A DNA stretch of 64,000 bases from Escherichia coli. Its GTDB lineage: Bacteria; Pseudomonadota; Gammaproteobacteria; Enterobacterales; Enterobacteriaceae. The notes under the pieces were generated by a model that saw only the letters and a program-made list of their open reading frames with translations, was not told where the DNA came from and searched no databases. Shown here piece by piece: positions 2,562 through 64,000 of this stretch (positions within the stretch are counted from its first letter, which is position 1; every line of letters starts with the position of its first letter). A program made the position numbers and the translations under genes. The stretch lies in NCBI RefSeq assembly GCF_024223415.1, contig NZ_CP100500.1, one strand, 5' to 3'.

Positions 2562-5500
2562 TACCGATATGCTCCACTTAACCGACCACCATCACGGGCC
2601 TGCTGTTGCATAAAGTCCGCTGCCGCTTTTTTCCCAAGGTCATAAACCACCTTCAGGGCAGCCGGACCTATCTGCCCGTTCGTGCCATCGTTATTGATCT
2701 CGATGTTGTACTGCGGGGCAAACATCGCCATACCTGAACCACCAATATCCGCCACAACCCCCAGCTTACCGTCAGCACCACGACGCAGTGGCAGAATGGC
2801 TTCAGGTCCAGCTTCCCCCATCACACCCGCGCCTTTTGCAAAAGCAAAAAACGTCGGACGGTTAACCACCGTGCCACTGTAACGACTCAAATCAGCAGAC
2901 TGATAAATCCCCCCATTGGCATTCAGGGAAAGGCTGCTGAGATCAAATCCCAGTACACTGCCAATCCCTTTTATCGATTTCATCATGGTTGCCTGCGCCA
3001 GGATTTTCGCCATATCTGACAGCACCGAAGAGGTGAAGGATTTGAAGTTGAGTTTGCCGGTAGTGACAAAAGTTGCCAGGCCATTTCCCATGTTGCTGAA
3101 GGCTGATGAGAACACCTGTTCTGCTGTTCCTGCCGTATTGTCTGCATCCACGGTAAAATCCTGAAATGCACGCAGGACTCCGTTTTTCCAGTTACCCTGC
3201 ACAACTTCAAGCTGTTGCCAGTAACGGCGATTCTCATTCAGTTGTCGGTTCAGGCTCTCCGTCAGCGCCTGCTCGGCCTTTCTGTAGTCATCCGTGTTAT
3301 ATGTCCCTTTCTGCTCACTATCCCGCCTCAACTGCTCCAGCTGTTGCTGGTATTTCTGGCGAAGACTCAGTTGTACCTGATATCGCTGCCGCTGCTGATC
3401 ACCCATACCCACCGTGGCGATATCCAGGTCATGTTGCTGACGCTGAGCGCGCTCTTCTTCAGCCAGTTGACTGGTCAGCTGAATTGTTTTTTTCTTCAGA
3501 TCGTTGAGTGCCGTTTGTTTCTGAAGCTCCTGCTGTTTTACATCCAGCAGCGTCAGTGCCTGAATCAGTTCATCTTTACGGGCCAGCACACTCTTTTCAT
3601 CTGCCGTCAGTTTTTTCCCGTCCAGGTCGCTGATGCGCTGCTGCAGAGCCAGAAGCTGTTTATGCGCTTCTGTCATCCTGTCAGTGGCAATGCCTGCTGA
3701 CTGTCTGGCAGCAGCAATCTGCCCTTCCACCTGTGCCTGTTGCTGGCTGTACTGCAGCAATAACCGGGTGGCCTCATCATTACGGGTTTCGCGTGTTTTT
3801 TTCTTACCGGATGCCAGGGCTTTCTCGTAACGTTCATTTTCACGTTGTATCGCCGCATCCCTGACAGCCTGATCGGCGTACTGCATGGCATTAATACGCG
3901 CAATTTCACGCTGATGTCGTGCTGCTTCCGTTTCATTCATCCGGTTCAGTGCAGCATTTTCAGCATTACGGCGTTTCTGTTGCTCCTGATAATTCCGCTC
4001 TGCCTGCTCTTTTGCATCCTGCAAATCCTTCTGGCGTTTTTTCTCCTGAAGCTCGTTAAGACGCTGCTGATCGTATTCAACCTGAGAAGATGATGCCGTC
4101 CAGGGGAGTCTTTTCGCCCGCGATACTTTCTCCTGCAAAGTGGCAATCTGCGCATCCAGCGAATCTTCACGACCAATATTCATGGCCGCATCCCAGAACT
4201 GCTTCCACCAGTCAGACAAGGTTTGCAGCGTACTACCCAGCGCATTGAGGTTATTATCAATATCCGCAGTACGCCGACCGGTTTCCTCTGCCAGTGCAGA
4301 CATGGCTATCCGTGCCGCATCACTGGAGCGCCCCTGCTCTCCAAGGACGCGTATCTGCTCAAGCTGAGTGGCAGTAAGAAAATGCAGCTCATTGTCCAGA
4401 GCCTTCGCGGCATTTACAGGATCATCCTTCAGCCGCTTAAACTGATTTATGGTATCGCTGATCGACTGGCCAACCGATCGCTCCATCTGTGCGGCAGCTC
4501 TCGCCACCATACCGATATCGTTTCCACGAAATGCACCACTCCCCACCACCTGAGCCAGCGCACCGGCTGCAGCATGTTGCGTGATACCATTCCCGGAAAT
4601 AGCACGACTGAGCGTCCACAGCTGCCCGGCAGTGACTCCGGCATAATGCCCCGTCAGCGACAGCTGGCGGTTAAATTCTTCCCCCTCCTTCTGACCGTCA
4701 TACCAGGCTTTACCCAGACCATAGACGGCCGCGGTAATACCGCCAATAACCCCGCCCAGCATCATGCCTTTCGGTGACATCAGTGTGTCTATCCATCCGG
4801 CACGGTTAGCCAGCGTTATCCCGGATCCCCTCAGCGCCCCTAAATTGCCGCGGGCCAGTTCACCTATCAGAACGCCTATCTCCTGGCGGGCCGCTGCACT
4901 TTTCAGACCCAGCGAATGCGTGGCTTTTCCTGCCCGCTCCATTTTGCGGATATACACTTCTGCAGCACTGCTTACCCCCAGCTGGGCAGCCCTGGCACGA
5001 AGCAACTCAGAAGAAGAAAGATTCTGGCGGGTTGCCTGCTCTTTAAGCTGACGGATAAACGCCACTTTCTGTCGGGTAGCCTCTGCCTCAGCCTGCGTAA
5101 GAACACGGGTTTTCGCCGTAACCTCAGAAATCAGCGCCAGATAATCCTGCTGACCAATCCCGCCACTGTTTCTGGCCTGTCGGATCTGCTGCTGAATACG
5201 CTGTAACTCCTGCAACCCCGCACTGGCCTGTTTCACACTGTCAATCTGACGATAAAACGCGGCAGCCGCTTTATCCTGAGCCTCCGCCAGAGCCATGGCC
5301 TGCGCCTGTTCCTCGCGCATTTTCTGGCTCAGCGCCTCCATGCGCTGGCGGGTTTTCTCCACCTCGCGGGCCATGCGTTCATGAGCCTGTGCGTTCTTCT
5401 CCACCGTCTGCGCATGGACGGATGCGGCTGTTGCAGCCGAAGAAGCCGCCTGCGTTGTCTGCCGGGCGGCCTGAGTCTGACGCTCCATAAAACGCTGCAT

Positions 5501-24388: not shown

Positions 24389-25071
24389 GCCGCCATCTCC
24401 CTGACCAGTTTTTCTGCCTGCTGGCGAACCTGCGCCAGAAAGGCCTCACCACATGCCTCAAGTTCATCGCGCCCGATGTAGCTGATTGCCGGTCCCTTCC
24501 AGGTCTTGTCGAAAACAGCAATAGCACCAGCGAAGAAAGCGCCTGTCGGCACCTGCTTCTCATCCTTCGGGATAAACCAGGCAGGCAGTTCAAAACCAAT
24601 ACGCCCGCGAATAAAAGCAATATGATCTACATCTTCCGGCCACCACACTTCGCTGGTGGCAGCTTTGATCAGGAAAACATAGCGCCCGCCTTTATCACGC
24701 ATGGCACTGGCATGCTTCATGATGTAACGCATGCCGGTGATGTATTGCCCCTCATGCTGACTGGCGCGGCTGTATGGGGGATTACCAAAGGCAGCACCTT
24801 TAAGCTCCGCAAGGCGTTCTGACCAGTCATGCGCCAGCGCGTTGTCTTCCGCCGTGTAATACGCAGCACATTTGGCGTTATCACCGTCAGTGAACAGATC
24901 CAGAACAAACGGGCCAAACAGGGTGTTAATTCCCCAGAAAATGTTGTCCGGCGTGCGCCACTGATCGCCCACTTCCTTCAGTTCATGGGCTGGTTTGTTC
25001 CGCAGTTCCACCAGCGCCTGGCAATATTTATTACTCATTAAGCCCCCACGTAATTCCCTGAGAGATACCAC
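24385..25071 (-). CDS. Phage DNA N6-adenine methyltransferase (orphan)
   Basis: 228 aa; NPPY catalytic motif (FGNPPYS); no adjacent restriction endonuclease. Confidence 0.8.
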   Translation of the reverse strand: MVSLRELRGGLMSNKYCQALVELRNKPAHELKEVGDQWRTPDNIFWGINTLFGPFVLDLFTDGDNAKCAAYYTAEDNALAHDWSERLAELKGAAFGNPPYSRASQHEGQYITGMRYIMKHASAMRDKGGRYVFLIKAATSEVWWPEDVDHIAFIRGRIGFELPAWFIPKDEKQVPTGAFFAGAIAVFDKTWKGPAISYIGRDELEACGEAFLAQVRQQAEKLVREMAA

Positions 25072-25532
25072 TCTTCACCTGATGCAGCCCGCTTACTGCT
25101 TTTCCGTAAACACCGTTCACGACGCGCCAGAAAATTGTTTCGTTCTGGCAGGGAGTGGCTTTCACGGAATGCCGCCATCCACACCGTTGCAGCACGACGG
25201 TATAAGCCCCTGGACTCCAGTTCTTCCGCCTGGCGGGTCAGGCACAAAATCACCCGCGGGTCGTTAGTGCCGACATAGAAATTGCGCACAGGTCTGGTTT
25301 CACGAACTGGTTGTGGTTCCGGATCCTGCGCTCTCTCAGTCAGGCGCGGGAAATGTCTGTGTGTATCTCCTTCACAACGGTGAGCCACACGCCCACTCTG
25401 ACGTAACTTGCTTGCTGACTGCAGAACGCGCTGCCGTGAGTAACCTGCAAAAGCATCCGCAATGTCTCCGGAAGTACAGCCCGGATGGGCTTCAATGAAT
25501 TTCTGAACGTCATTCAAAAGACTCATGCTCAC
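25038..25532 (-). CDS. PerC/ANR-like putative transcriptional regulator
   Basis: 164 aa; motif EELESRGLYRRAATVWMAAF; a paralogous motif occurs in ORF 58540-58812. Confidence 0.4.
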   Translation of the reverse strand: MSMSLLNDVQKFIEAHPGCTSGDIADAFAGYSRQRVLQSASKLRQSGRVAHRCEGDTHRHFPRLTERAQDPEPQPVRETRPVRNFYVGTNDPRVILCLTRQAEELESRGLYRRAATVWMAAFRESHSLPERNNFLARRERCLRKSSKRAASGEEWYLSGNYVGA

Positions 25533-26470
25533 CCCCTGAATCCTGCCGGGATCTGGCTGTAGTCCACATTGTCGTAACTGGCTTTGAAGTACGGGTCTTC
25601 GCGTTTTTCTGTGTACGTGCTGACGGACGGCGATAAGCGCAGGGAAAGCTCATCCCATTTTTCCCGCAGCTTCGACGGGCTGAGCACGTTACGGCACCAG
25701 AACGGATCGCGGCTGACGCGGCTGTAAATCTCGCAGATTTGTTTGTGAGTACGACCATCCTGCACACACATCAGGCGAATTTCGTTTGCCCAGGCTGTCC
25801 AGTTCGGTTCTTTGGGACGAACCACCTCGCCGTCACATTCGGCAGCCTGCTCGTACAGGGCGATGATTTTTTTCCAGAGCCACTGTGCGCAGGTCAAATC
25901 ATCCTGCGTCCCCCACTGGCGTTTTTTAGGGCTGAATACAACCGCATCAGGATGGCGAGTTAAAAAATCCTGTTCAGCCGTCTGCGTGTCCGGTTGCGAA
26001 GAGTCCGGACGAGAAGGTTTTTTATCTGACGGATCATGTTTTGATTTTACTGACGGATCCCCGCCAGATTCTGACGGGTGAAAACCCGCTTTTTTGCCAG
26101 ATTTCGACGCATCAAATTTTGACGGGTCAGATTTTGATGCGTCAGATTTTGACGGGTCAGAATCTGACAGTTGAGAAAATGCCGCTGCCTGAAGCTTCGC
26201 AACGTTAAGCTGATAAACATTCGACGCATTGCGGTTACCCTGGCGACGCGCCTTACGCGTTAACCAGCCTTCTGCTTCCAGCCGTGCGATAGCCGTTCTG
26301 ACGGTACTCATCCCCGCGCCAATCTGGCGGGCAATGGTTTCAATCGATGGCCAGCACACACCTTCGTCATTACTGAAATCAGCCAGGCGGGCCATAATTG
26401 CCACGCTGGATAATTTCATGCCTGACGCTGCGCAACCATCCCATACATAGCCGGTTAATTTAGTGCTCAT
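25529..26470 (-). CDS. Replication initiation protein (O-like, HTH N-terminus, iteron-containing)
   Basis: 313 aa; N-terminal HTH; central SDPSKSD repeats encoded by DNA iterons; lies between Cro-side genes and nin region. Confidence 0.7.
   Translation of the reverse strand: MSTKLTGYVWDGCAASGMKLSSVAIMARLADFSNDEGVCWPSIETIARQIGAGMSTVRTAIARLEAEGWLTRKARRQGNRNASNVYQLNVAKLQAAAFSQLSDSDPSKSDASKSDPSKFDASKSGKKAGFHPSESGGDPSVKSKHDPSDKKPSRPDSSQPDTQTAEQDFLTRHPDAVVFSPKKRQWGTQDDLTCAQWLWKKIIALYEQAAECDGEVVRPKEPNWTAWANEIRLMCVQDGRTHKQICEIYSRVSRDPFWCRNVLSPSKLREKWDELSLRLSPSVSTYTEKREDPYFKASYDNVDYSQIPAGFRG
26042..26172. repeat. Replication origin iterons inside O-like gene
   Basis: About 7 direct repeats of GATTTTGACGGGTCA-like units at 15-16 bp spacing. 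Confidence 0.6.
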
Positions 26471-26681
26471 GACCGACCTCTATTTCCCTGAATTTACGAC
26501 GAAACTGTTCGAGCGGACTGAAGCACTCATGCTCATAGCCTTCGCGGAGGTAGATAACCCGTTGTGTTTCCGGTTCCCAACGAATGACTCTGACGGGCAC
26601 TCCGTAGTGATCTTTGAACCAGCGGTTAACTTGTCGCAAAGGACTGTCTCCTTCTGCCGGTTGAAATCCCCCACAGCCCAC
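26460..26681 (-). CDS. Small conserved protein upstream of replication gene
   Basis: 73 aa; C-terminal ...[24 protein letters not shown] is paralogous to ORF 61519-61818 (...RITYRREGYEYDCVMPVYQFRRDF); overlaps O start. Confidence 0.5.
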
Positions 26682-26814
26682 TCTGCAAAGCTGTGGGTTA
26701 CAATTTCCCTGTCACCTGGTACATTCACTGCATAGCAATATTCCACCTTCGCTTTTCCACCCGGTACAGGAAGCGCAATCAGTTGCGAGCGACGGTAGTG
26801 TGTTGTTAAACTGT

Positions 26815-27429
26815 TCATGCGTTAGTTTCTCCACAACCAGAAGCAATCGACGCCACGACGCCCGGAGCTGCACACTCGCGGGCGTCATTACTTTCTGAAA
26901 TGCAAAAGATTTTGTAGACCAGTGCTGCATGCTCCTGCAGCTTCGAAATTGAGAGATACAGCTCGTCGTTAATTGCTGTCTTCTCATGCGGTTCCACTAC
27001 ACCGTCTTCGATTGCTGAACGAATCTGTTTTGAATAACTGCCGATCTGTTCAATGACTTCCAGCAGACGCTGGTTAATATCGGCGTTGTCCACATCCTCG
27101 ACGTCAGGAAGAGACACAAAGACGCCATTTGCAGACTGCGCCACAGCGTCAGCAATGAAGTGAGTTCCACCAGCACGTTGCAAAATCATTGCCCATCCCA
27201 GCGGGAAAATCTGATCGCCATCGGCACGAAGGCGGTTAAATAATGCGTTCTCTGTTACATCCAGCCAGTCAGCTGCTTCAGCGTAACCACCCGGCAACTT
27301 TGCGATAGTTTTTCTGACAGCTTTCACGTACCACTCAGGCTGTTTTTCTACTTTCCAGTGATGCTTACCCACGGTTAGCCTCATCGTTCTGTGGTTTCTG
27401 TTAATCGATTTATCCATTAGATTTTTCAT
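26815..27429 (-). CDS. YdaT-like regulatory protein (CII-position gene), start uncertain
   Basis: ORF immediately downstream of Cro-like gene; Rac-type racR/ydaS/ydaT arrangement; candidate starts at 27429, 27417, 27384 (ORF extends to 27486). Confidence 0.45.
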
Positions 27430-27610
27430 AAAGCTCAGGTTTAAATGGCAACCGTCCGCAAGTTCTATATGCAGCTTCTGCTGCACGTCCTTTTGGAATT
27501 AACTGGCCCGGACGGTTTCGCCACTGATAAACGGCTTCAGTTGTTATGCCGAAAAAAGCAGCAACTTTCTCAATACTGCCGAAGTAGCTTTCGATATCGT
27601 CAGTTGTCAT
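27410..27610 (-). CDS. cro: Cro-like repressor (YdaS-type HTH)
   Basis: 66 aa HTH protein (FGITTEAVYQWRNRPGQ) divergent from cI across an operator region. Confidence 0.7.
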   Translation of the reverse strand: MTTDDIESYFGSIEKVAAFFGITTEAVYQWRNRPGQLIPKGRAAEAAYRTCGRLPFKPELYEKSNG

Positions 27611-27707
27611 ACGCCCTCCAAACTAAGTTTTGTTAGATGCTAATTACAAATCTATCTTTGGTCAATAAAAACTAAGATTACTTAGCAATTAAAGAAATGG
27701 TGCTCCT
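27611..27707. promoter_or_regulatory. OR-like operator/promoter region between cro and cI
   Basis: Divergent intergenic region with ACTAAG half-sites including palindrome CTAAG-N4-CTTAG at about 27672-27685. Confidence 0.5.
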
Positions 27708-28334
27708 ATGGAAACGGTTGGTCAGCGTATAAAAGCTCTGAGAAGAGTTACCAGAACGTCCCAGAAAGAATTGGGTAAATTTTGTGGAGTAAGCGACGTT
27801 GCTGTGGGGTACTGGGAGAAAGACATCAATACCCCTGGTGGGGAGGCACTTTCGAAATTAGCGAAGTTCTTCAATACGTCAATAGATTACATTCTTTATG
27901 GTGCTGAGTTTGAAGGCAAACTCGTCACAAACATGCGCAGAGTTCCTGTAATATCGTGGGTTCAGGCTGGGCAGTTTACTGAGTGCAGGGCAGCAGAAGT
28001 GTTTAGTGAAGTGGACAAGTGGGTAGATACATCATTAAAGGTTGGTGATAACTCATTTGCATTAGAGGTTAAAGGTGACTCCATGACTAACCCTAATGGC
28101 CTCCCAACAATACCAGAAGGCGCAACAGTGATTGTAGATCCAGATGCAGAACCTCGTCATGGAAAAATAGTCATCGCTCGACTTGATGGAACAAACGAAG
28201 CTACAGTAAAAAAATTAGTCATCGATGGCCCTCAAAAGTTTTTAGTGCCATTAAATCCTCGGTATCCCAACATCCCTATCAATGGTAATTGCCTTATCAT
28301 TGGTGTAGTCAAAGGAGTTCAATACGAACTCTAA
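27708..28334 (+). CDS. cI: CI-like prophage repressor (HTH_XRE + S24 peptidase)
   Basis: 208 aa; N-terminal HTH; C-terminal LexA-like autocleavage domain with GDSM and KKL catalytic motifs. Confidence 0.9.
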   Translation: METVGQRIKALRRVTRTSQKELGKFCGVSDVAVGYWEKDINTPGGEALSKLAKFFNTSIDYILYGAEFEGKLVTNMRRVPVISWVQAGQFTECRAAEVFSEVDKWVDTSLKVGDNSFALEVKGDSMTNPNGLPTIPEGATVIVDPDAEPRHGKIVIARLDGTNEATVKKLVIDGPQKFLVPLNPRYPNIPINGNCLIIGVVKGVQYEL

Positions 28335-33536: not shown

Positions 33537-33613
33537 TGGCGCGCCCTGCAGGATTCGAACCTGCGGCCCACGACTTAGAAGGTCGTTGCTCTATCCAACT
33601 GAGCTAAGGGCGC
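33537..33613 (-). tRNA. argU: tRNA-Arg (anticodon UCU)
   Basis: 77-nt cloverleaf on minus strand, anticodon loop CTTCTAAGT, T-arm GGTTCGAATCC, 3' CCA; immediately downstream of int. Confidence 0.9.
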
Positions 33614-56690: not shown

Positions 56691-57026
56691 TTATCGTGCC
56701 AGCGGCTGAACGGATACGCCGGAACCCGCAAAGGCGGCGCATTTTTTCGCATCGGTGTCGACGCTATCAGGCCAGTTAACGGCGGCAATATTGAATATCC
56801 CCGTTTTGTAACACTGTGCTGATTTCTGCTTTGACGTGTCCACGGGGTGCGAAGTCAGATAAACAGCTTTGCCAGATTCCTGACCATCCCACGCCTTAAA
56901 CTCGCCATTGTCTGCCAGCATCAGCGGGGTAAATTCCTGAATAACGCCAGCATCAGCGGCAAAATGTACCAGCGTCGTGGATACCTGCTGGCTGCCTGAA
57001 AATAACTCAATGTATGGAGCGTCCAT
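56691..57026 (-). CDS. Head decoration protein (lambda gpD-like)
   Basis: 111 aa; ...LMLADNGEFKAWDG...AAFAGSGVSV resembles gpD; adjacent to gpE-like gene. Confidence 0.6.
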   Translation of the reverse strand: MDAPYIELFSGSQQVSTTLVHFAADAGVIQEFTPLMLADNGEFKAWDGQESGKAVYLTSHPVDTSKQKSAQCYKTGIFNIAAVNWPDSVDTDAKKCAAFAGSGVSVQPLAR

Positions 57027-57037
57027 AGAATCCCCCG

Positions 57038-58093
57038 TTAAGCAATTTTGACGGTAACAAATTTGCGAATATCTGCCGGTACCGGCTGCGGTGCGCTGTG
57101 CGTCTGCACGTACTCAATCGCCGGATCGCCGTCCTCAATCCAGTTTTTCGGGTAGTACATGTTTTGCGTTGCGCCCGTTCTTACCGCTTCCTGATCCATA
57201 ATCGCACCATATGCCACCAGCCCTTTATTGTTGGTGTTACCCAGGACCAGCAAATCAGGCTCAAGGAAATATTTTTCGGTGCCGTCGCTGTCAGTGTATT
57301 TGCCGGAATAGACGATAAGGGCCAGATCACCAAGATAGCCTTTAAAGCTCACCACTTCGCCCAGGTTTTTACAGGCCAGCTCGGCGGCGGATTCTGACCC
57401 ACGGGAAAGATCGTACAGTTCACGGAATTTTTTAAAGCTGCGTAATGTGCGCCATACCTCACCGCCCATAATCATGACGTTGGCGGGGCAACCTGCCTGA
57501 TCAGCATAAAGCTCGATGTCATAGATTGGGTCGTGCATGTCTTTATCCTGCTGGGACCATTTTTTACCACTGGCCTGCTGTATGATGCAGTTTTCCGGTA
57601 TTTTCCAGTCGATTTCATAGCGTTCTATGCCTTCGCCCTCAATGATGTTTTTTCCGGTCGTTACCGCATTCACCGCCAGCCATTCAACACGCGCTTTAAT
57701 GGCGTTTACCTGGCGGCGCATGTTGCCAGTAATCAGGCGCATACGGCGATAGGTTGGGTCGTTAAGCTGTGCCGGATCTTCTCCAGCCATGCGCATGATG
57801 GTCTTTGTTGGATCGATTTCGTGCTTTGGCTTCATGTAGCCTGGTTTAATCGTGCTGGTTTCGTACCCTTTATCGCGCTGGACCTGACTACCCACCATAG
57901 GAGAACAGAACGCAGACATCGTAACCTCTTCAATGTCCAGGGTGTCCAGCATGATGTTTTGGGTGTTGAAGGTCGCCACGTTCGGGAAAAACAGCGTGGT
58001 AAACAGCGGACTAAATTTAAATTCCGAAATATCCCCGCGATTCAGGTACGCGAAAAGCTGGTTAGTTGTAAGTGCCGTTGCTTTGCCTGTCAT
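57038..58093 (-). CDS. Major capsid protein (lambda gpE-like)
   Basis: 351 aa; shares with lambda gpE the blocks PGYMKPKHE, EDPAQLNDPTYRR, YSGKY, YPKNW..GDPA, SAP. Confidence 0.8.
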   Translation of the reverse strand: MTGKATALTTNQLFAYLNRGDISEFKFSPLFTTLFFPNVATFNTQNIMLDTLDIEEVTMSAFCSPMVGSQVQRDKGYETSTIKPGYMKPKHEIDPTKTIMRMAGEDPAQLNDPTYRRMRLITGNMRRQVNAIKARVEWLAVNAVTTGKNIIEGEGIERYEIDWKIPENCIIQQASGKKWSQQDKDMHDPIYDIELYADQAGCPANVMIMGGEVWRTLRSFKKFRELYDLSRGSESAAELACKNLGEVVSFKGYLGDLALIVYSGKYTDSDGTEKYFLEPDLLVLGNTNNKGLVAYGAIMDQEAVRTGATQNMYYPKNWIEDGDPAIEYVQTHSAPQPVPADIRKFVTVKIA

Positions 58094-58539: not shown

Positions 58540-58812
58540 TCACTTCTGCGGGTAGTTGCGCCATATTGCTTTGCCAATACCAGCTATCCCCATTTGTTTT
58601 TCAGTGCGATTAACTGACCTTTTCAGAGCGCCTAAATCATCCGGCGGCTCCGGTGGCCTCTGTGCCTTCCGTGAACATTCCAGCCGTCGCATTGCCACCT
58701 GTGCGCGTTCCTTGTCTGTCTCCACCAGCATCATCACTTCACCCCATCGCGCGGCCGCCCTCCGGTAAAATCCTTTCGCCTCCAGTTCCTCCGCTATCCG
58801 GTCATGTACCAT
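58540..58812 (-). CDS. PerC/ANR-like putative regulator
   Basis: From MVHDRIAEELEAKGFYRRAAARWGEV with GAGGGGG RBS; motif shared with prophage ORF 25038-25532. Confidence 0.4.
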   Translation of the reverse strand: MVHDRIAEELEAKGFYRRAAARWGEVMMLVETDKERAQVAMRRLECSRKAQRPPEPPDDLGALKRSVNRTEKQMGIAGIGKAIWRNYPQK

Positions 58813-58822
58813 CGTCACCCCC

Positions 58823-59233
58823 TCAGAACGGAATATCATCACCGTAAGGGTCATCGCCTCCCGCTGGTGGCTGATTACCCTGTGTGCCTGTGGTTTTGCG
58901 TCTGTTCCCGCCAGGACGTGCCGCACGGGCACTGATTACGCTGTCTGCGATGACCTGCCAGCCCTGCCGCGTTTCGCCGTTCTGGCCTGTCCACTGGCTT
59001 ACCTGCATGTTACCCGCCACGCTCACCAGTTCGCCTTTGTGGTGTCTGGCCAGTGCGTCGGCCTGTCTGCCAAACGCCAGGACGGATAACCACATCGTCG
59101 CCGTTCCGTCATCTGCCTGGCTGCATGGCAGGGGAACCGCCATACTCGCCATCGCCATTTGTGTCCCTTTGCTGGTCTGTTTTGTCTGCGGGTCGTCCAC
59201 CAGCCGCCCGTAAGCCGCTATCTGTGCTGTCAT
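58823..59233 (-). CDS. ssb: Single-stranded DNA-binding protein (SSB)
   Basis: 136 aa; OB-fold-like N-terminal region, Gly/Pro/Gln-rich linker, C-terminal acidic tip ...GDDPYGDDIPF typical of SSB. Confidence 0.7.
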   Translation of the reverse strand: MTAQIAAYGRLVDDPQTKQTSKGTQMAMASMAVPLPCSQADDGTATMWLSVLAFGRQADALARHHKGELVSVAGNMQVSQWTGQNGETRQGWQVIADSVISARAARPGGNRRKTTGTQGNQPPAGGDDPYGDDIPF

Positions 59234-59773: not shown

Positions 59774-61522
59774 CTATAAAAACGCGTCGCAGTCGTCTGT
59801 TGTTGTCACGTTGGTTTGCGTAAACCCTTTAATCCTGCGCGTTATATATTCATGACCGTAAACTTTCGCCGCTGGCTTCATGGCCTTGCTGAACTCAGCC
59901 ACGTTCAGCGGTTTGCTCCTGCCTGCATACGCCATAAACGCCAGATAGACGCGGTAAAGGCTGTTTCTGGTCGTGTACTTCACTGAATCGCCACCGCCGC
60001 CCATCATCAGGCCACGTGCTTCCTCCAGAAAATTCAGGAACTGGCAAAACTCAATAACCGGATCCGTCTGTTGCTTTATTGCCAGAGCTTCATCACCGTC
60101 TCGCTGTTCAATGAGTAAAGCCCGTGCCTTTTCAGGGTCGGCAAAGTTCGCCAGCAAGCGGCGGATAATGACAGGGATTTCAGCCGCGATCTTTTCCGGT
60201 AGCTCCCTGTCTTTTTCTGCCTCGCTTACGATGTTATCGAACCGGAATATCACCCGACGACGTGACACGCCTCCTGCCCGTTCGGTGAATATCATCGGGT
60301 TATTATTGGTTGCCAGCACAACCGCCCTGATTACCGCCGTGAATCGCTTTTCATATTTCGGGTTGATTTCCACGGGGTCGCCGCCCGTGATTTTCTTGAT
60401 GCCCGTTCCTTCGCCTGTATATTTCGGCTGGTCTGCCAGGACAATAAGCCTACTCCCGACAACCTGCGCACGCCCACCAGCATCATCAAGCGATGTCATC
60501 TCAGCGCTTACCGTGTTCTGTTTCCCTGCCAGAAGGCTGGCTATGTGTGTGAATGTACTTTTACCGCTCCCGCCGTCTCCGGTGGCCTCAATAAACATCT
60601 GCCAGTCGTACCGGTTCGCCATAATCATGTACAGCGCGGCACATATACGCATCATCTTGCGCGGGTCTTTTCCGGCAGCGTGATCAAGCCATTTATGAAA
60701 GTTTGGCGCGTTGTCGCGGATATTCTCACCTGGTACTGGCGGCGTGTACTCAATGCCGTTGTGTGTGGTGATCCAGTTCTCCGGCGTGTGCGGGGAAAAT
60801 TCCCCCGTTTTCAGGTCAAGCGCACCATTGGCGAACGGCAGCAAATCGCCGGACGGCTCGCCCATTGGTTCGGCAATAACTTTTAACGCTTCCACGGCGT
60901 TACTGATTACGCGCTTGCTGAAAGTGGCCCTGTGCTCTGAATAGATCGCCACCATTTCGCGGCTCAGTTCCATTGTGCTGACCGGACACCATACCCCGCC
61001 GCGCCATACGTGAACGATTTCACTTTCCAGATGCACACAAACGCCATCAAATCGACCAGCAAGCATCTGTGCGCGCTCACTGTCTGCCATTTGTGCCAGT
61101 TGCGTATTTTTCTGCTCCGGCATGGTAAGCCCTGCGGCAATATTTTCACGCTCAGCATTCAGATAGCGCCGCCAGTTTTCACACTTCTGACCGTGCATTC
61201 CTTCAGAGTAAAAATTCGCATCCTGAATATCTGCCGCCGCCAGCTTCTGACCAATCTTTTTGGTCTCCACTAAATCCAGTTCTCCGGCCTGGTACAGCCT
61301 TACGCGTTTTTTTCCATCCGGAACAATTTTCAGCGCATCAAGTTCAGCAAGCTGATTTGGCCCAAGCCACACAGGCGGCACATTATCGCCGGATGCGGGA
61401 CCGTCCTTCTCCTGCCACTGTTGTGCATGCGACCAGGCATCACTACCCGCAAAGATAATTACCTCTGTGTCTTTGTGTTTTATTCCGCGTGGCTGTTTTT
61501 TTACGTTCGGTGCCAGTTTCAT
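59774..61522 (-). CDS. Primase/replicative helicase (D5_N/Primase_C + SF3 helicase, P4-alpha/PICI Pri-Rep type)
   Basis: 582 aa; Walker A GDGGSGKST; origin iterons directly downstream. Confidence 0.8.
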   Translation of the reverse strand: MKLAPNVKKQPRGIKHKDTEVIIFAGSDAWSHAQQWQEKDGPASGDNVPPVWLGPNQLAELDALKIVPDGKKRVRLYQAGELDLVETKKIGQKLAAADIQDANFYSEGMHGQKCENWRRYLNAERENIAAGLTMPEQKNTQLAQMADSERAQMLAGRFDGVCVHLESEIVHVWRGGVWCPVSTMELSREMVAIYSEHRATFSKRVISNAVEALKVIAEPMGEPSGDLLPFANGALDLKTGEFSPHTPENWITTHNGIEYTPPVPGENIRDNAPNFHKWLDHAAGKDPRKMMRICAALYMIMANRYDWQMFIEATGDGGSGKSTFTHIASLLAGKQNTVSAEMTSLDDAGGRAQVVGSRLIVLADQPKYTGEGTGIKKITGGDPVEINPKYEKRFTAVIRAVVLATNNNPMIFTERAGGVSRRRVIFRFDNIVSEAEKDRELPEKIAAEIPVIIRRLLANFADPEKARALLIEQRDGDEALAIKQQTDPVIEFCQFLNFLEEARGLMMGGGGDSVKYTTRNSLYRVYLAFMAYAGRSKPLNVAEFSKAMKPAAKVYGHEYITRRIKGFTQTNVTTTDDCDAFL

Positions 61523-61818
61523 TTTTTACCCCTGAATACGTTAAGCATCTTTTTTATTTCCTGAATATTGGCGCGTGCTTTCTCCCTGCTGGTTGGTTTA
61601 CTGCGGGGCGCTGCCTGTACCAGAGAAAAATCACGCCGGAACTGATAAACAGGCATCACGCAATCATATTCGTAGCCTTCACGGCGGTAAGTGATGCGCC
61701 GTTCCTCCACGCCTTTAATCGTTACCGTGCCGCCGTACTGGTCGCGGTAAATATCGCCGTTCATAAATTCAGGCCGAGCGGGGCCGCTGGCATTAACGCC
61801 AGTATTTTTCATTCCCAT
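61519..61818 (-). CDS. Small conserved protein upstream of primase
   Basis: 99 aa; motif RITYRREGYEYDCVMPVYQFRRDF shared with prophage ORF 26460-26681. Confidence 0.45.
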   Translation of the reverse strand: MGMKNTGVNASGPARPEFMNGDIYRDQYGGTVTIKGVEERRITYRREGYEYDCVMPVYQFRRDFSLVQAAPRSKPTSREKARANIQEIKKMLNVFRGKK

Positions 61819-61822
61819 ATAA

Positions 61823-62065
61823 TTAAATTCCGTTTGTGTGGTGTTTTAATTCGTCAATTTTTTCTAATGCTTTGTTTATCTTGCTGGTGGAAATATCCAG
61901 CAATTCAGAAATAGCAAATATAAGTCTTGCCGTTGATTCATCTCTTTCGTTGTTTGACAGCAATTGAAACCACACGTTTGTAATTTCAATTGCCGAATTA
62001 TTATAGGTTATTGCACTGTTCATGTATTCCGACACCTCTGCAAGCGAAAGTTTATTATTCTCCAT
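61823..62065 (-). CDS. Hypothetical protein
   Basis: 80 aa ORF in tightly packed minus-strand operon. Confidence 0.3.
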   Translation of the reverse strand: MENNKLSLAEVSEYMNSAITYNNSAIEITNVWFQLLSNNERDESTARLIFAISELLDISTSKINKALEKIDELKHHTNGI

Positions 62066-62246
62066 AACGTTCTACCCTCTCATCAATTAACCACAGTGCA
62101 ACACTTCCTGACAGTCTTGCCAGAAGGCCAGCTAATGCGGATATATCATCATCATTTAATTTATTAGGGTACGCTTCAAGAAGTCTGCAAATAATTTCGG
62201 TTTGGTGGGCGCGTTCAGCGGCTTCGTGTAATGTAATTTCCTTCAT
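62055..62246 (-). CDS. Hypothetical protein
   Basis: 63 aa ORF, overlapping neighbours. Confidence 0.3.
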   Translation of the reverse strand: MKEITLHEAAERAHQTEIICRLLEAYPNKLNDDDISALAGLLARLSGSVALWLIDERVERYGE

Positions 62247-62431
62247 TAATGCACCTCTTTTAATTCATACACTGCTGAAATAATGACTTGTGATAAGCCA
62301 TATTCTGATGATTCGCTTCTCACCGCAGCAATAGCCGTCTGAACATTAACAGCCTTCACATTCTGAGCGATACCAATTGTGTGGCCTAGTGGGTTAACAG
62401 CTCGGGCAAATACACGGAAGGTTTTAAGCAT
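62246..62431 (-). CDS. Hypothetical protein
   Basis: 61 aa ORF, overlapping neighbours. Confidence 0.3.
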   Translation of the reverse strand: MLKTFRVFARAVNPLGHTIGIAQNVKAVNVQTAIAAVRSESSEYGLSQVIISAVYELKEVH

Positions 62432-62831
62432 GGCGCACCCCCTGAATAACCTGATATCCGCAACTGGTCAGCAATTCGATAAATTCCGGCAGAGTGCCAA
62501 AACAGCAATCAGTGCGTAGCTGTTCGCAGGATACCTCAACGCCGTTTTCGTAATGGCTCACTATGCGCCCGGTAAAATGCGGATCATCATCGTGATGGCA
62601 CGTTGACGGTTTCATCAGCCGCGCGCGTTCCGCCAGTTCCAGCAATGCTTCAACGCTTCCGGCAATTGCACCATCCGGCAGGTGATAATTACTTACTACG
62701 CGTCCATTCTCTACATTGACCAGTAGCTGTCCGGTAAATTTCTCACGAAACTGAACGCGGTTAAGATCGGTAAGTGACAGGTTAATCATGGCACACCTCC
62801 TGACGAATACGGGCGGCGAATACAGCGACAC
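62424..62831 (-). CDS. Hypothetical protein
   Basis: 135 aa ORF at head of the minus-strand operon. Confidence 0.35.
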   Translation of the reverse strand: MSLYSPPVFVRRCAMINLSLTDLNRVQFREKFTGQLLVNVENGRVVSNYHLPDGAIAGSVEALLELAERARLMKPSTCHHDDDPHFTGRIVSHYENGVEVSCEQLRTDCCFGTLPEFIELLTSCGYQVIQGVRHA

Positions 62832-63172
62832 AACCGGACGGGCAACGGTTACGCGCTTCGCGTTCTGTCCAGGCGGTCACGTGGATAATTTGAGATTCTC
62901 CGGCACTCAGTGCCAGAAAACGCCACACAAAGGCGGTTTGTGTGTGCGCAAGGCGTGGGGTATGCTGTGTTCCAGCCATAATCGTTACCTCAATTAATGG
63001 TTTGGTTAGAAGCCCGTTGGTGTTCATAGCGCCAGCGGGCTTTGTCTTTTCATCGATTACCTCAATAAAGGTGTCAGCCACTATACTAGTAACAGGTGTC
63101 AGCCACGTCAATAGTGTTTTTCCATTTTCTTGTGTGTATACTGTCAGCCACCTAATAACAAGGAAATCAGAT

Positions 63173-63352
63173 ATGGCAACGAAAGCAGTTAATGGAAAAT
63201 CCAAAAAACTTGAGGCACGAGTCCCCCATGCAATAGCTGACGCTTTAGAAAATTTAAAGGAAGAAGGCGAAAGCACTGGGCAATTTATCGTTTCGGCACT
63301 TGAAGGCGAGATCAAACGCCGCCAGCGCCGGAAGGCCAAAGAATCAGAATAA
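63173..63352 (+). CDS. Small basic protein (possible DNA-binding regulator)
   Basis: 59 aa from MATKAVNGKSKKLEARVPHAIADALENLKEEG...; divergent from the minus-strand operon. Confidence 0.35.
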   Translation: MATKAVNGKSKKLEARVPHAIADALENLKEEGESTGQFIVSALEGEIKRRQRRKAKESE

Positions 63353-63409
63353 TCACTATCAGCGCCGTGGTGTGAGGTACTGCGGCGCATTGTTTTAAAG
63401 GTGATAATT

Positions 63410-63601
63410 ATGAATAACCAAGAACTACAAAATAAAGCATTATCAATTATCATGCGCCAGCGTGAGAAAACCCGCAGGGAAATAAATAAGGCATTAACCC
63501 GCACTGAAAATCTTAAAGTTCCTGATAAGTTCGCCCTTGATCCTTTTGTCGAGAAATACCCTCGGCGCTTAAAAGCAAACAAAAACCGCCCACCTGGCTG
63601 A
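63410..63601 (+). CDS. Hypothetical small protein
   Basis: 63 aa ORF followed by an intrinsic terminator. Confidence 0.3.
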   Translation: MNNQELQNKALSIIMRQREKTRREINKALTRTENLKVPDKFALDPFVEKYPRRLKANKNRPPG

Positions 63602-63635
63602 CAATCCACCAGCAAGCCAGGACACTGATCACATT

Positions 63636-63663
63636 GGCCACCGTGACAGGTGGCCTTTTCTTT
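63636..63663 (+). terminator. Intrinsic terminator
   Basis: GGCCACC-GTGACA-GGTGGCC hairpin followed by TTTTCTTT. Confidence 0.5.
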
Positions 63664-64000
63664 GCCCGTTATCCGGCAATTGTGGCGCTTCGCCACACGG
63701 TTGATATAATCCCACTGCTCATATTCATTTTTTGCGCAGTAGGTTAATTGTTCAGAAAGGCGGCTCCTTATCGGGGCCGCTTTTTTTATGTCTGAAAAAC
63801 CGCGATTTTGTTGTTTTTCAGTTTCACAAGGCCGAACGAAGCCCCGCCCCTGTTCGGGCGTATATCCAGTCTTCATGGTTAAATCTCTGTATTAGTGGAT
63901 GGGTGGCGGCTGTGTGCCGCCAGTCTTTTTAGTGAACTGCCTCGCAGCTTTCCTTCCATGCCAGAACTTCGGATAAAGACCAGCCAACGGAACGACCGCC

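What the first reader, a model, noticed from the sequence alone, without database searches (positions are those of the whole stretch)
61519..61818. The same small protein family precedes the replication gene in both the prophage and the satellite-like element
ORF 61519-61818, just upstream of the island primase, and ORF 26460-26681, just upstream of and overlapping the prophage O-like gene, share a clear motif block (Y-D-YG...REGYE..C..P..QFRR.F). A PerC/ANR-like motif (E-L-E-x-G-x-YRRAA-x-W) is likewise shared between ORF 25038-25532 in the prophage and 58540-58812 in the island. Shared replication-proximal regulators would be a route for the island to sense or interfere with this prophage.
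Basis: seen in the sequence. Interest (0 to 1): 0.45.

Follow-up and report, generated by a model that had tools for sequence, protein, structure and literature searches.

The report
RgdR-family gene before replication genes
Both small ORFs are real genes of the known DUF4222/RgdR family, which sits just upstream of the replication gene in lambdoid prophages and phage satellites generally, so finding it in both elements is ordinary and not a sign that they talk to each other.

Summary
ORF 61519-61818 and ORF 26460-26681 are both Pfam DUF4222 (E 3e-24 and 3e-19), with pairwise E 3e-11. ORFs 58540-58812 and 25038-25532 are both PerC family.

The island copy is an 85% ortholog of RgdR (ECs1581) of the cf-PICI EcCIEDL933, and the island PerC is 78% identical to PchE. 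The prophage copy is most likely 59 aa (26460-26639, TTG start). NCBI annotates exactly this CDS in about 2,000 E. coli genomes.

The position is generic. In 56 of 61 RgdR-type loci and 94 of 95 prophage-type loci, the next gene overlaps the DUF4222 stop codon. That gene is a replication protein of at least five architectures. So the shared family reflects a conserved module in each element class. Nothing points to specific cross-talk between these two elements.

The model is a Tudor/SH3-like barrel, and the mechanism is unresolved. I infer a host-directed factor co-translated with the initiator.

One side result: the prophage copy lies out of frame inside ymfM, the e14 'SfiC' division inhibitor. 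The DUF4222 frame is under purifying selection, yet the ymfM frame is kept open. The published ymfM clone carries both frames.

The parts
61519..61818 (-). Island DUF4222 gene, an RgdR ortholog of 99 aa. Residues 20-22 read NGD rather than RGD.
   Evidence: Pfam PF13973, E 3e-24. 85% identity over all 99 aa to ECs1581/RgdR of Sakai Sp7. phrog_285. The AF2 model shows a Tudor/SH3-like barrel at residues 23-68 plus a C-terminal helix at 77-96, mean pLDDT 80.
59774..61522 (-). Island replication protein (primase/helicase, 582 aa). It has an N-terminal module of about 130 aa, followed by D5_N, DUF5906 and Pox_D5 domains. Its ATG overlaps the RgdR stop codon (ATGA).
61823..62831 (-). Four tightly packed small ORFs upstream in the same operon: 62424-62831, 62246-62431, 62055-62246 and 61823-62065. 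Function unknown.
   Evidence: ORF list. They match PHROG families of unknown function and have no Pfam match.
58823..59233 (-). Island single-stranded DNA-binding protein.
   Evidence: Annotated as SSB in 94%-identical relatives. Syntenic with ECs1587 of Sakai.
58540..58812 (-). Island PerC-family gene, PchE-like, 90 aa.
   Evidence: PF06069, 131 bits. 78% identity to PchE ECs1588.
56691..58093 (-). Island head genes: major capsid protein (57038-58093) and head decoration protein (56691-57026). They mark the island as a capsid-forming PICI-like satellite.
   Evidence: Annotation of the 93.8%-identical island in E. coli PKF11.
26460..26639 (-). Prophage DUF4222 gene. Most likely 59 aa from a TTG start with an AAGGAG Shine-Dalgarno sequence. 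It overlaps the O-like gene by 11 nt.
   Evidence: Pfam, E 3.2e-19. phrog_1343, E 2e-34. PGAP annotates this CDS. Codon-position pattern 11/2/30. Sequence.
26480..26818 (-). ymfM frame (112 codons). Its last 53 sense codons overlap the DUF4222 gene out of frame.
   Evidence: 96% identical to K-12 YmfM. phrog_1170. The frame is kept open in 62 of 64 unique related sequences.
25529..26470 (-). Prophage O-like replication initiator, 313 aa.
   Evidence: Pfam HTH_36, DnaD_N and RP-C matches. Annotated 'DNA replication protein O' in 98%-identical phages.
25038..25532 (-). Prophage YfdN, 164 aa, with a C-terminal PerC domain.
   Evidence: PF06069, 33.7 bits. phrog_1324 'transcriptional activator'. 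PGAP annotates it 'yfdN, PerC family transcriptional regulator'.
26815..28334 (.). Prophage immunity and early region: CII-like YmfL (26815-27372/27486, -), Cro-like gene (27410-27610, -) and cI/LexA-like repressor (27708-28334, +).
   Evidence: Pfam Phage_CP76. Annotations of close relatives.

Best explanation
**What it is (shown).** The two ORFs are paralogous members of the small DUF4222/RgdR family.
- The island copy is the ortholog of RgdR of the capsid-forming PICI EcCIEDL933 (CP-933C, O-island 51).
- The prophage copy is the 59-aa type found between the cII-like gene and the O-like gene of e14/SfII-like lambdoid prophages.
- In both element classes the gene is the last small gene of the early operon. 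Its stop codon overlaps the start of the replication initiator, an arrangement consistent with translational coupling.
- The pairing persists although the initiator itself has been exchanged among at least five unrelated architectures.
- The same family in both elements of this window therefore reflects a conserved, ancient module layout shared by lambdoid phages and PICI satellites.

**How it works (inferred).** The protein is a free-standing Tudor/SH3-like beta-barrel. In satellites it also carries a basic C-terminal helix.
- It keeps its position whatever initiator follows, and identical RgdR sequences occur with different initiator N-termini. It therefore probably does not dock onto the initiator.
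- It more likely acts by protein-protein contact on a conserved host component at the time replication starts. RNA polymerase is one candidate; a nucleoid or replication factor is another.
- On this view, the published activation of LEE1 and repression of motility by RgdR are side effects of that host-directed activity.
- PerC-family genes are often found just downstream of the replication genes (yfdN, pchE-like). They are a second, unrelated family with the same kind of history.

**Confidence.** The single figure of 0.55 blends two parts. The identity and the generic-module reading stand at about 0.9. The host-directed mechanism stands at about 0.3.
For: **Identity.**
- Pfam, PHROG and BLASTP matches.
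- 85% identity to ECs1581, with full synteny to Sakai Sp7: ECs1581, primase, hypothetical, SSB, PchE, head genes.
- EcCIEDL933 is the prototype cf-PICI (bioRxiv 10.1101/2022.09.08.507074).

**Coupling to replication genes.**
- 56 of 61 RgdR-type viral-contig loci have the next gene starting at an ATGA overlap.
- All 18 e14-like loci overlap by 11 or 44 nt.
- 76 of 77 further prophage loci overlap, and 68 of 75 of their next genes carry HTH_36, DnaD_N or Phg_2220_C.
- Distant members show the same pairing.

**Initiator types.** D5_N/DUF5906/Pox_D5, DUF927, AAA_25, HTH_36 O-like and Phg_2220_C.

**Mosaicism.** Identical RgdR sequences occur with different primase N-termini.

**Published behaviour of RgdR.** Pleiotropic effects on transcription, only weak non-specific DNA binding, and the authors' proposal that it acts as a co-factor (PMC3378721).
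Against: - Tight coupling to the initiator is equally what a replication accessory protein would show.
- The pairing is not universal. In some P4-like islands the short type lies 1.8 kb upstream of the primase, between Bro-N and Ash genes. One member is an orphan next to an AraC-family gene.
- All loci come from Enterobacterales-type elements, and many are related, so the counts overstate independent observations.
- The family is small: 121 representatives at 50% identity among 1.84 billion proteins.
Confidence: 0.55

Rival explanations
1. DUF4222 is a replication accessory or copy-number regulator that binds the initiator it is co-translated with. It would be functionally analogous to Cnr of P4, which is encoded just upstream of the alpha primase.
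For: The stop/start overlap with the replication gene holds in nearly all loci. In satellites, RgdR is followed by replicases that share one conserved N-terminal module of about 130 aa, even when the rest of the replicase differs. P4 has a small gene, ORF106/cnr, in the same position.
Against: The partner would have to be at least five unrelated proteins. RgdR and the N-terminal module recombine freely. An AF2 model of RgdR fused by a linker to the N-terminal module gave pTM 0.48 and lower confidence in RgdR than the protein alone. This is a crude test with no PAE output. There is no homology to Cnr (hhalign probability 0.06%).
Confidence: 0.25
2. One reading: the island and the prophage share these regulators so that the island can sense or interfere with this particular prophage.
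For: Satellites do exploit helper functions. Both copies could act on the same target if the family has one conserved target. Both elements also carry a PerC-family gene near the replication genes.
Against: The copies are only 39% identical and belong to different subfamilies with different termini. Each is generic to its element class. Both modules occur in about a third of E. coli genomes. PICI induction in Gram-negative bacteria is reported to run through AlpA.
Confidence: 0.07
3. RgdR-type genes are accessory virulence regulators (morons), selected for their control of LEE/type III secretion and motility. This is how the literature treats them.
For: Deleting ecs1581 lowers T3S, adherence and sheep colonisation, and the gene complements in trans (PMC3378721). 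PMC6092414 groups it with accessory genes.
Against: The gene sits inside the replication operon with overlapping start and stop codons, not at an element end. [quoted passage not shown] Short-type relatives occur in Klebsiella, Enterobacter, Citrobacter and Salmonella, genera in which LEE-type secretion is not typical (my own knowledge). The copy here has N at residue 20, and an engineered N at residue 20 reduced T3S.
Confidence: 0.12
4. The 73-aa prophage frame is not a gene. The real gene is the overlapping frame 26480-26818 (ymfM).
For: The curated K-12 record annotates ymfM and not the DUF4222 frame. ymfM has a published phenotype.
Against: Pfam E 3e-19. Amino-acid identity in the overlap is 87-90% in the DUF4222 frame against 43-57% in the ymfM frame, at 79-82% nucleotide identity, with variable columns 11/2/30 on DUF4222 codon positions. 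Homologues of 59-70 aa occur across many genera and stand alone in some phages. PGAP annotates this frame.
Confidence: 0.02

Closest known systems
RgdR (ECs1581) of E. coli O157:H7 O-island 51 / CP-933C / Sakai Sp7 / cf-PICI EcCIEDL933
   Same: The island copy has the same length (99 aa) and 85% identity. It has the same neighbours in the same order, and the same 4-nt overlap with the downstream primase.
   Different: Residues 20-22 are NGD here, not RGD. The primase that follows shares only its first ~130 aa with the Sakai one (D5/DUF5906 type here, DUF927 there). The head module is also of a different type.
DUF4222 genes of e14/SfII-like lambdoid prophages (phrog_1343; the unannotated ORF at NC_000913.3 1,204,001-1,204,180 in K-12 e14)
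   Same: The prophage copy matches the K-12 e14 ORF at all 58 residues after the TTG start. It has the same position between ymfL/ymfM and the O-like gene.
   Different: Nothing of substance. In K-12 the downstream O-like gene is truncated and fused (ymfN/oweE).
PerC/Pch family (PchE ECs1588; YfdN of K-12 CPS-53)
   Same: The island copy is 78% identical to PchE and syntenic with it. The prophage copy is annotated yfdN.
   Different: YfdN carries an extra N-terminal region of about 95 aa. PchA-C are the LEE activators and PchE is reported as inactive; this is my own knowledge and was not checked here.
Cnr (ORF106, DUF5375) of satellite phage P4
   Same: A small gene immediately upstream of the primase gene in a satellite.
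   Different: No sequence or profile similarity. It belongs to a different Pfam family.
Tudor-like RNA-polymerase-interacting domains (UvrD/PcrA C-terminal domain, CarD N-terminal domain)
   Different: Sequence identity is only 13-19%. The domain here stands alone rather than being part of a larger protein. RNAP binding is untested, and many unrelated SH3-like barrels score about as well.

Membership tests
Pfam DUF4222 (PF13973) | HMM score above the gathering threshold of 27 bits across the whole 53-position model | tested here: met
   84.8 bits (profile positions 1-53) for the island copy and 68.7 bits (positions 1-52) for the prophage copy.
Pfam DUF4222 (PF13973) | Conserved GYE and FRR motifs (Pfam description, recalled from memory) | tested here: met
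   REGYEYDC...QFRRDF and REGYEHEC...QFRRKF. D, G, V, R, Y, C and F are nearly invariant across 57 diverse members.
RgdR orthologs (Flockhart et al. 2012) | More than 77% similarity over the full 99 aa of ECs1581 | tested here: met
   85% identity and 89% positives over 99 aa with no gaps.
RgdR orthologs (Flockhart et al. 2012) | Location in a CP-933C/PICI-type island, immediately upstream of the primase | tested here: met
   Synteny with Sakai Sp7 and with 56 of 61 viral-contig loci.
RgdR orthologs (Flockhart et al. 2012) | RGD tripeptide at residues 20-22, which gave the protein its name and matters for T3S activation | tested here: not met
   The window protein reads NGD (M19 N20 G21 D22). 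An engineered N at residue 20 reduced T3S in the paper.
RgdR orthologs (Flockhart et al. 2012) | Activates the LEE1 promoter and represses motility | not testable with these tools
   Requires reporter and secretion assays.
PerC family (PF06069) | HMM score above the 22.6-bit cut-off | tested here: met
   131.2 bits, full length, for 58540-58812. 33.7 bits, profile positions 5-56 only, for 25038-25532.
Capsid-forming PICI (cf-PICI) | int, alpA and a pri-rep gene, plus its own capsid and packaging genes, and no tail genes, in about 15 kb | tested here: inconclusive
   The window holds the primase, SSB, PerC, major capsid, decoration, connector and small terminase genes. It ends at 64000, before any int or alpA. 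The 94%-identical island in strain PKF11 has both.
P4 Cnr (DUF5375) | Sequence or profile homology to Cnr | tested here: not met
   hhalign probability 0.06%, E 0.77.
Tudor-like RNAP-interacting domains (CarD/TRCF RID; UvrD/PcrA C-terminal domain) | Five-stranded Tudor/SH3-like barrel | tested here: inconclusive
Tudor-like RNAP-interacting domains (CarD/TRCF RID; UvrD/PcrA C-terminal domain) | Binds the RNA polymerase beta subunit | not testable with these tools
   Needs pull-down, two-hybrid or a multimer prediction with PAE output.
YmfM (phrog_1170), the alternative frame 26480-26818 | Full-length match to the family and to K-12 YmfM | tested here: met
   phrog_1170, E 6e-70, positions 1-112. 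96% identity to K-12 YmfM.

The most novel reading that the evidence does not exclude
DUF4222 is a replication-coupled, host-directed factor common to lambdoid phages and PICI satellites. In most of the lambdoid loci sampled here, including e14 of E. coli K-12, it is encoded out of frame inside ymfM, and both frames are maintained by selection.

The published ymfM clone and deletion both include the DUF4222 gene: its Shine-Dalgarno sequence, its TTG start and 53 of its 59 codons. The SOS-inducible division block ('SfiC') assigned to YmfM could therefore be due wholly or partly to the DUF4222 product.
Probability: 0.15. Interest if true: 0.6.

Novelty: new member of a known kind. Interest (0 to 1): 0.3.

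Why it matters
The finding as written adds little. Both genes already carry their family name in NCBI annotation. RgdR is already described as present in all the E. coli PICIs analysed, and there is no sign of element-to-element cross-talk.

Two points may be useful to specialists:
- The only characterised member of the family is treated as a virulence regulator. Its conserved, overlapping position in front of replication genes of five architectures, in both phages and satellites, says its native role belongs to the element's own replication phase.
- The prophage-type gene overlaps ymfM out of frame. The curated K-12 record and NCBI's automatic annotation each show only one of the two frames. 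The experiments that named YmfM the SfiC division inhibitor did not separate them.

Tried and rejected
- **P4 Cnr as a remote homolog:** rejected (hhalign probability 0.06%).
- **Direct complex of RgdR with the primase N-terminal module:** tested with a linker-fused AF2 model on a paired alignment of 21 loci. pTM was 0.48 and RgdR confidence fell, so there is no support. The tool gives no PAE, so the test is weak.
- **PDB by sequence profile:** no meaningful hit.
- **NCBIfam:** no model for either DUF4222 protein.
- **PADLOC defence models:** no hit for DUF4222, PerC, YmfM or the neighbouring small ORFs.
- **BFVD fold search:** only uncharacterised small phage proteins and DUF1653.
- **'Icd-like' label for 62424-62831,** suggested by annotations of relatives: rejected. 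There is no similarity to the Icd-like protein of strain PKF11.
- **Locus scan with a very diverse short-type alignment:** failed for lack of a conserved stretch. It was repeated with a narrower alignment.
- **Programmed -1 frameshift from ymfM into DUF4222:** considered. I saw no X XXY YYZ slippery site upstream of the TTG by eye. I did not search for one systematically.
Full report
**1. The observation**

The two small ORFs are present as described. Both hit Pfam DUF4222 (PF13973) far above the curated cut-off: 84.8 bits, E 3e-24, for 61519-61818, and 68.7 bits, E 3.2e-19, for 26460-26681. They align to each other at 39% identity over 49 residues, E 3e-11.

The second pair also holds. ORF 58540-58812 is a full-length PerC-family protein (131 bits). 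ORF 25038-25532 has a C-terminal PerC domain (33.7 bits). The two align at E 6e-9 through the EELE..G.YRRAA..W block.

**2. What the elements are**

The prophage is an e14/SfII-like lambdoid. It is 98% identical to Escherichia phages vB_EcoM-689R6 and vB_EcoS-569R4 over this region. The gene order is:
- cI-like repressor
- cro-like gene
- CII-like YmfL
- ymfM/DUF4222
- O-like initiator
- YfdN (PerC family)
- Dam methylase
- LexA-like gene
- RusA

This order comes from the annotations of close relatives.

The island is a capsid-forming PICI-like satellite. A 94%-identical relative in strain PKF11 runs as follows: int, hypothetical, AlpA, small genes, DUF4222, primase, hypothetical, SSB, PerC, major capsid, decoration, connector, small terminase.

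The same order is found in Sakai prophage Sp7: ECs1581, primase ECs1582, SSB ECs1587, PchE ECs1588, then head genes. Sp7 corresponds to CP-933C / O-island 51. That element is the prototype cf-PICI EcCIEDL933.

**3. Identity of the island copy**

It is 85% identical over all 99 residues to ECs1581, that is, RgdR. The island PerC is 78% identical to PchE.

RgdR is the only characterised DUF4222 protein. It activates LEE1, represses motility and binds DNA only weakly and non-specifically. Its authors proposed that it acts as a co-factor (PMC3378721; review PMC10877973). [quoted passage not shown]

The copy here reads NGD at residues 20-22 instead of RGD. An engineered N at residue 20 lowered T3S in the original study.

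**4. Identity and limits of the prophage copy**

Relatives begin MRE(L/I)(N/D)RW/Y at an ATG preceded by GGAG. In this window and in K-12, the aligned codon is a TTG with AAGGAG 8 nt upstream. NCBI's pipeline annotates exactly this 180-nt CDS as 'DUF4222 domain-containing protein', overlapping the O-like gene by 11 nt. The module is present in 2052 of 5426 complete E. coli genomes. The gene is therefore most likely 26460-26639 (59 aa).

Homologues of 59-70 aa are annotated in Klebsiella, Enterobacter, Citrobacter, Salmonella, Kosakonia, Cronobacter and others.

**5. The overlapping frame**

Frame 26480-26818 is ymfM. It is 96% identical to K-12 YmfM, the 'cell division inhibitor' of e14.

In 17 unique e14-like sequences, the variable columns within the overlap fall 11/2/30 on DUF4222 codon positions 1/2/3. 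Nucleotide identity there is 79-82%. Amino-acid identity is 87-90% in the DUF4222 frame and only 43-57% in the ymfM frame.

The ymfM frame is nevertheless kept open:
- It is open in all 17 of those sequences.
- In a second, much more divergent set, an ORF starting MNSL runs 113-117 codons and covers the whole DUF4222 gene in the same relative frame. It occurs with three different N-terminal sequence types.
- Over a 46-codon core, the alternative frame is open in 62 of 64 unique sequences.
- The only closed lineage (L167-L171) is the one whose upstream gene ends at the DUF4222 start.
- Valine codons followed by A, where GTG or GTA would create a stop in the ymfM frame, are never GTG or GTA (0 of 127). 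At safe sites the figure is 14 of 72, and in the neighbouring replication genes it is 41%.
- Synonymous resampling gives a chance of an open frame of 0.02-0.07 with E. coli codon usage over 52 codons. With local codon usage over the core, the median is 0.21.

The sequences are related, so these figures are not clean probabilities. The pattern still points to a genuine same-strand overlapping gene pair.

The curated K-12 record shows only ymfM. PGAP-annotated genomes show only DUF4222.

The study that assigned the SfiC phenotype to ymfM cloned the whole ymfM ORF into pBAD24. Its text does not mention the nested ORF. That ORF fragment (L004 4323-4661) contains the DUF4222 Shine-Dalgarno sequence, the TTG at 4502 and 53 of its 59 codons.

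**6. How general the position is**

A profile scan of IMG/VR returned 62 RgdR-type and 18 e14-like loci.
- In 56 of 61 evaluable RgdR-type loci, the next gene starts with an ATG that overlaps the stop codon (ATGA).
- In all 18 e14-like loci, the next gene starts 11 or 44 nt before the DUF4222 stop.

A second scan with divergent short-type members gave 80 prophage loci.
- In 76 of 77 evaluable loci the next gene overlaps the stop, 54 of them as ATGA.
- 68 of 75 next genes carry HTH_36, DnaD_N or Phg_2220_C domains.

Distant representatives looked up singly show the same pairing:
- DUF4222 then a Phg_2220_C protein
- DUF4222 then DUF927
- DUF4222 then AAA_25
- CII, small genes, DUF4222, O-like, lambda-P-like

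There are exceptions. In some P4-like islands the gene lies between Bro-N and Ash genes, 1.8 kb upstream of the primase. One member is an orphan beside an AraC-family gene.

The family is small. It has 121 representatives at 50% identity among 1.84 billion proteins.

**7. The replicases**

Identical RgdR sequences occur with different versions of this module. An AF2 model of RgdR linked to the module gave pTM 0.48 and no gain in confidence.

**8. Structure and mechanism**

With a 57-sequence alignment, AF2 gives mean pLDDT 80, and 90-94 across residues 21-70. The model has five strands at residues 23-68 that form a small barrel, a short helix at 57-63, and, in the long type, a C-terminal helix at 77-96.

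The gene keeps its place in front of at least five unrelated initiators and recombines freely with them. I therefore judge a conserved host target more likely than the initiator itself. On that view, the known effects of RgdR on LEE1 and motility are by-products. This step is inference.

**9. PerC**

A PerC-like gene lies downstream of the replication genes in three samples of loci of at least 7 kb:
- 16 of 42 RgdR-type loci
- 44 of 62 second-set prophage loci
- 0 of the 18 e14-like loci from the first scan

The arrangement of DUF4222, replication genes, then PerC is common but not obligatory.

**10. Verdict**

Both genes belong to a known, already annotated family. The island copy is an ortholog of a published protein. 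The shared position reflects a conserved module layout in each element class. The proposed cross-talk has no support.

The mechanism of the family remains open. The ymfM/DUF4222 overlap is the most interesting thing found on the way.

Noticed in passing
window 26460-26818 (-); K-12 locus L004 4323-4681 = NC_000913.3 1,203,822-1,204,180: ymfM and the DUF4222 gene are a same-strand, out-of-frame overlapping pair. The DUF4222 frame is conserved as protein. The ymfM frame is kept open in 62 of 64 unique sequences across three N-terminal types. The ORF cloned in the published ymfM (SfiC) experiments contains both frames.
   Followed up: yes
L004 4502-4681 (K-12 MG1655) against L098 2521-2700: Annotation disagreement. 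The curated MG1655 record has ymfM but no DUF4222 gene. PGAP-annotated E. coli genomes, including K-12 derivatives, have the DUF4222 CDS but no ymfM.
   Followed up: yes
window 61100-61522 (-), first ~140 codons of the primase: An N-terminal module of about 130 aa is shared by satellite replicases whose bodies are otherwise unrelated (D5/DUF5906, DUF927, AAA_25). It has no Pfam match and weak fold similarity to DnaG/T7/Twinkle primase regions.
   Followed up: partly
window 61753-61761 (-), residues 20-22 of the island DUF4222 protein: The name-giving RGD motif of RgdR reads NGD here. The same natural variant occurs in several viral-contig loci (L010, L014, L065).
   Followed up: partly
window 25038-25532 and 58540-58812; loci L007-L178: A PerC-family gene often lies just downstream of the replication genes: 16 of 42 satellite loci, 44 of 62 divergent prophage loci and 0 of 18 e14-like loci.
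   Followed up: partly
window 62782-63876 (-) and 62942-63352 (+): A 364-codon minus-strand ORF of odd composition overlaps a plus-strand 136-codon ORF. The C-terminal part of the plus-strand ORF (…KKLEARVPHAIADALENLKEEGE…) looks to me like a ribbon-helix-helix regulator diverging from the island operon. I did not examine it with tools.
   Followed up: no
window 33537-33613 (-): A tRNA-Arg (anticodon tct) lies at the junction between the prophage and the conserved chromosomal segment that begins at about 33.5 kb. It is probably the prophage attachment site.
   Followed up: no
window 62424-62831 (-): Relatives carry 'Icd-like cell division inhibitor' genes at this position. The ORF here has no detectable similarity to them, so the island's leftward small-gene block is variable.
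   Followed up: partly
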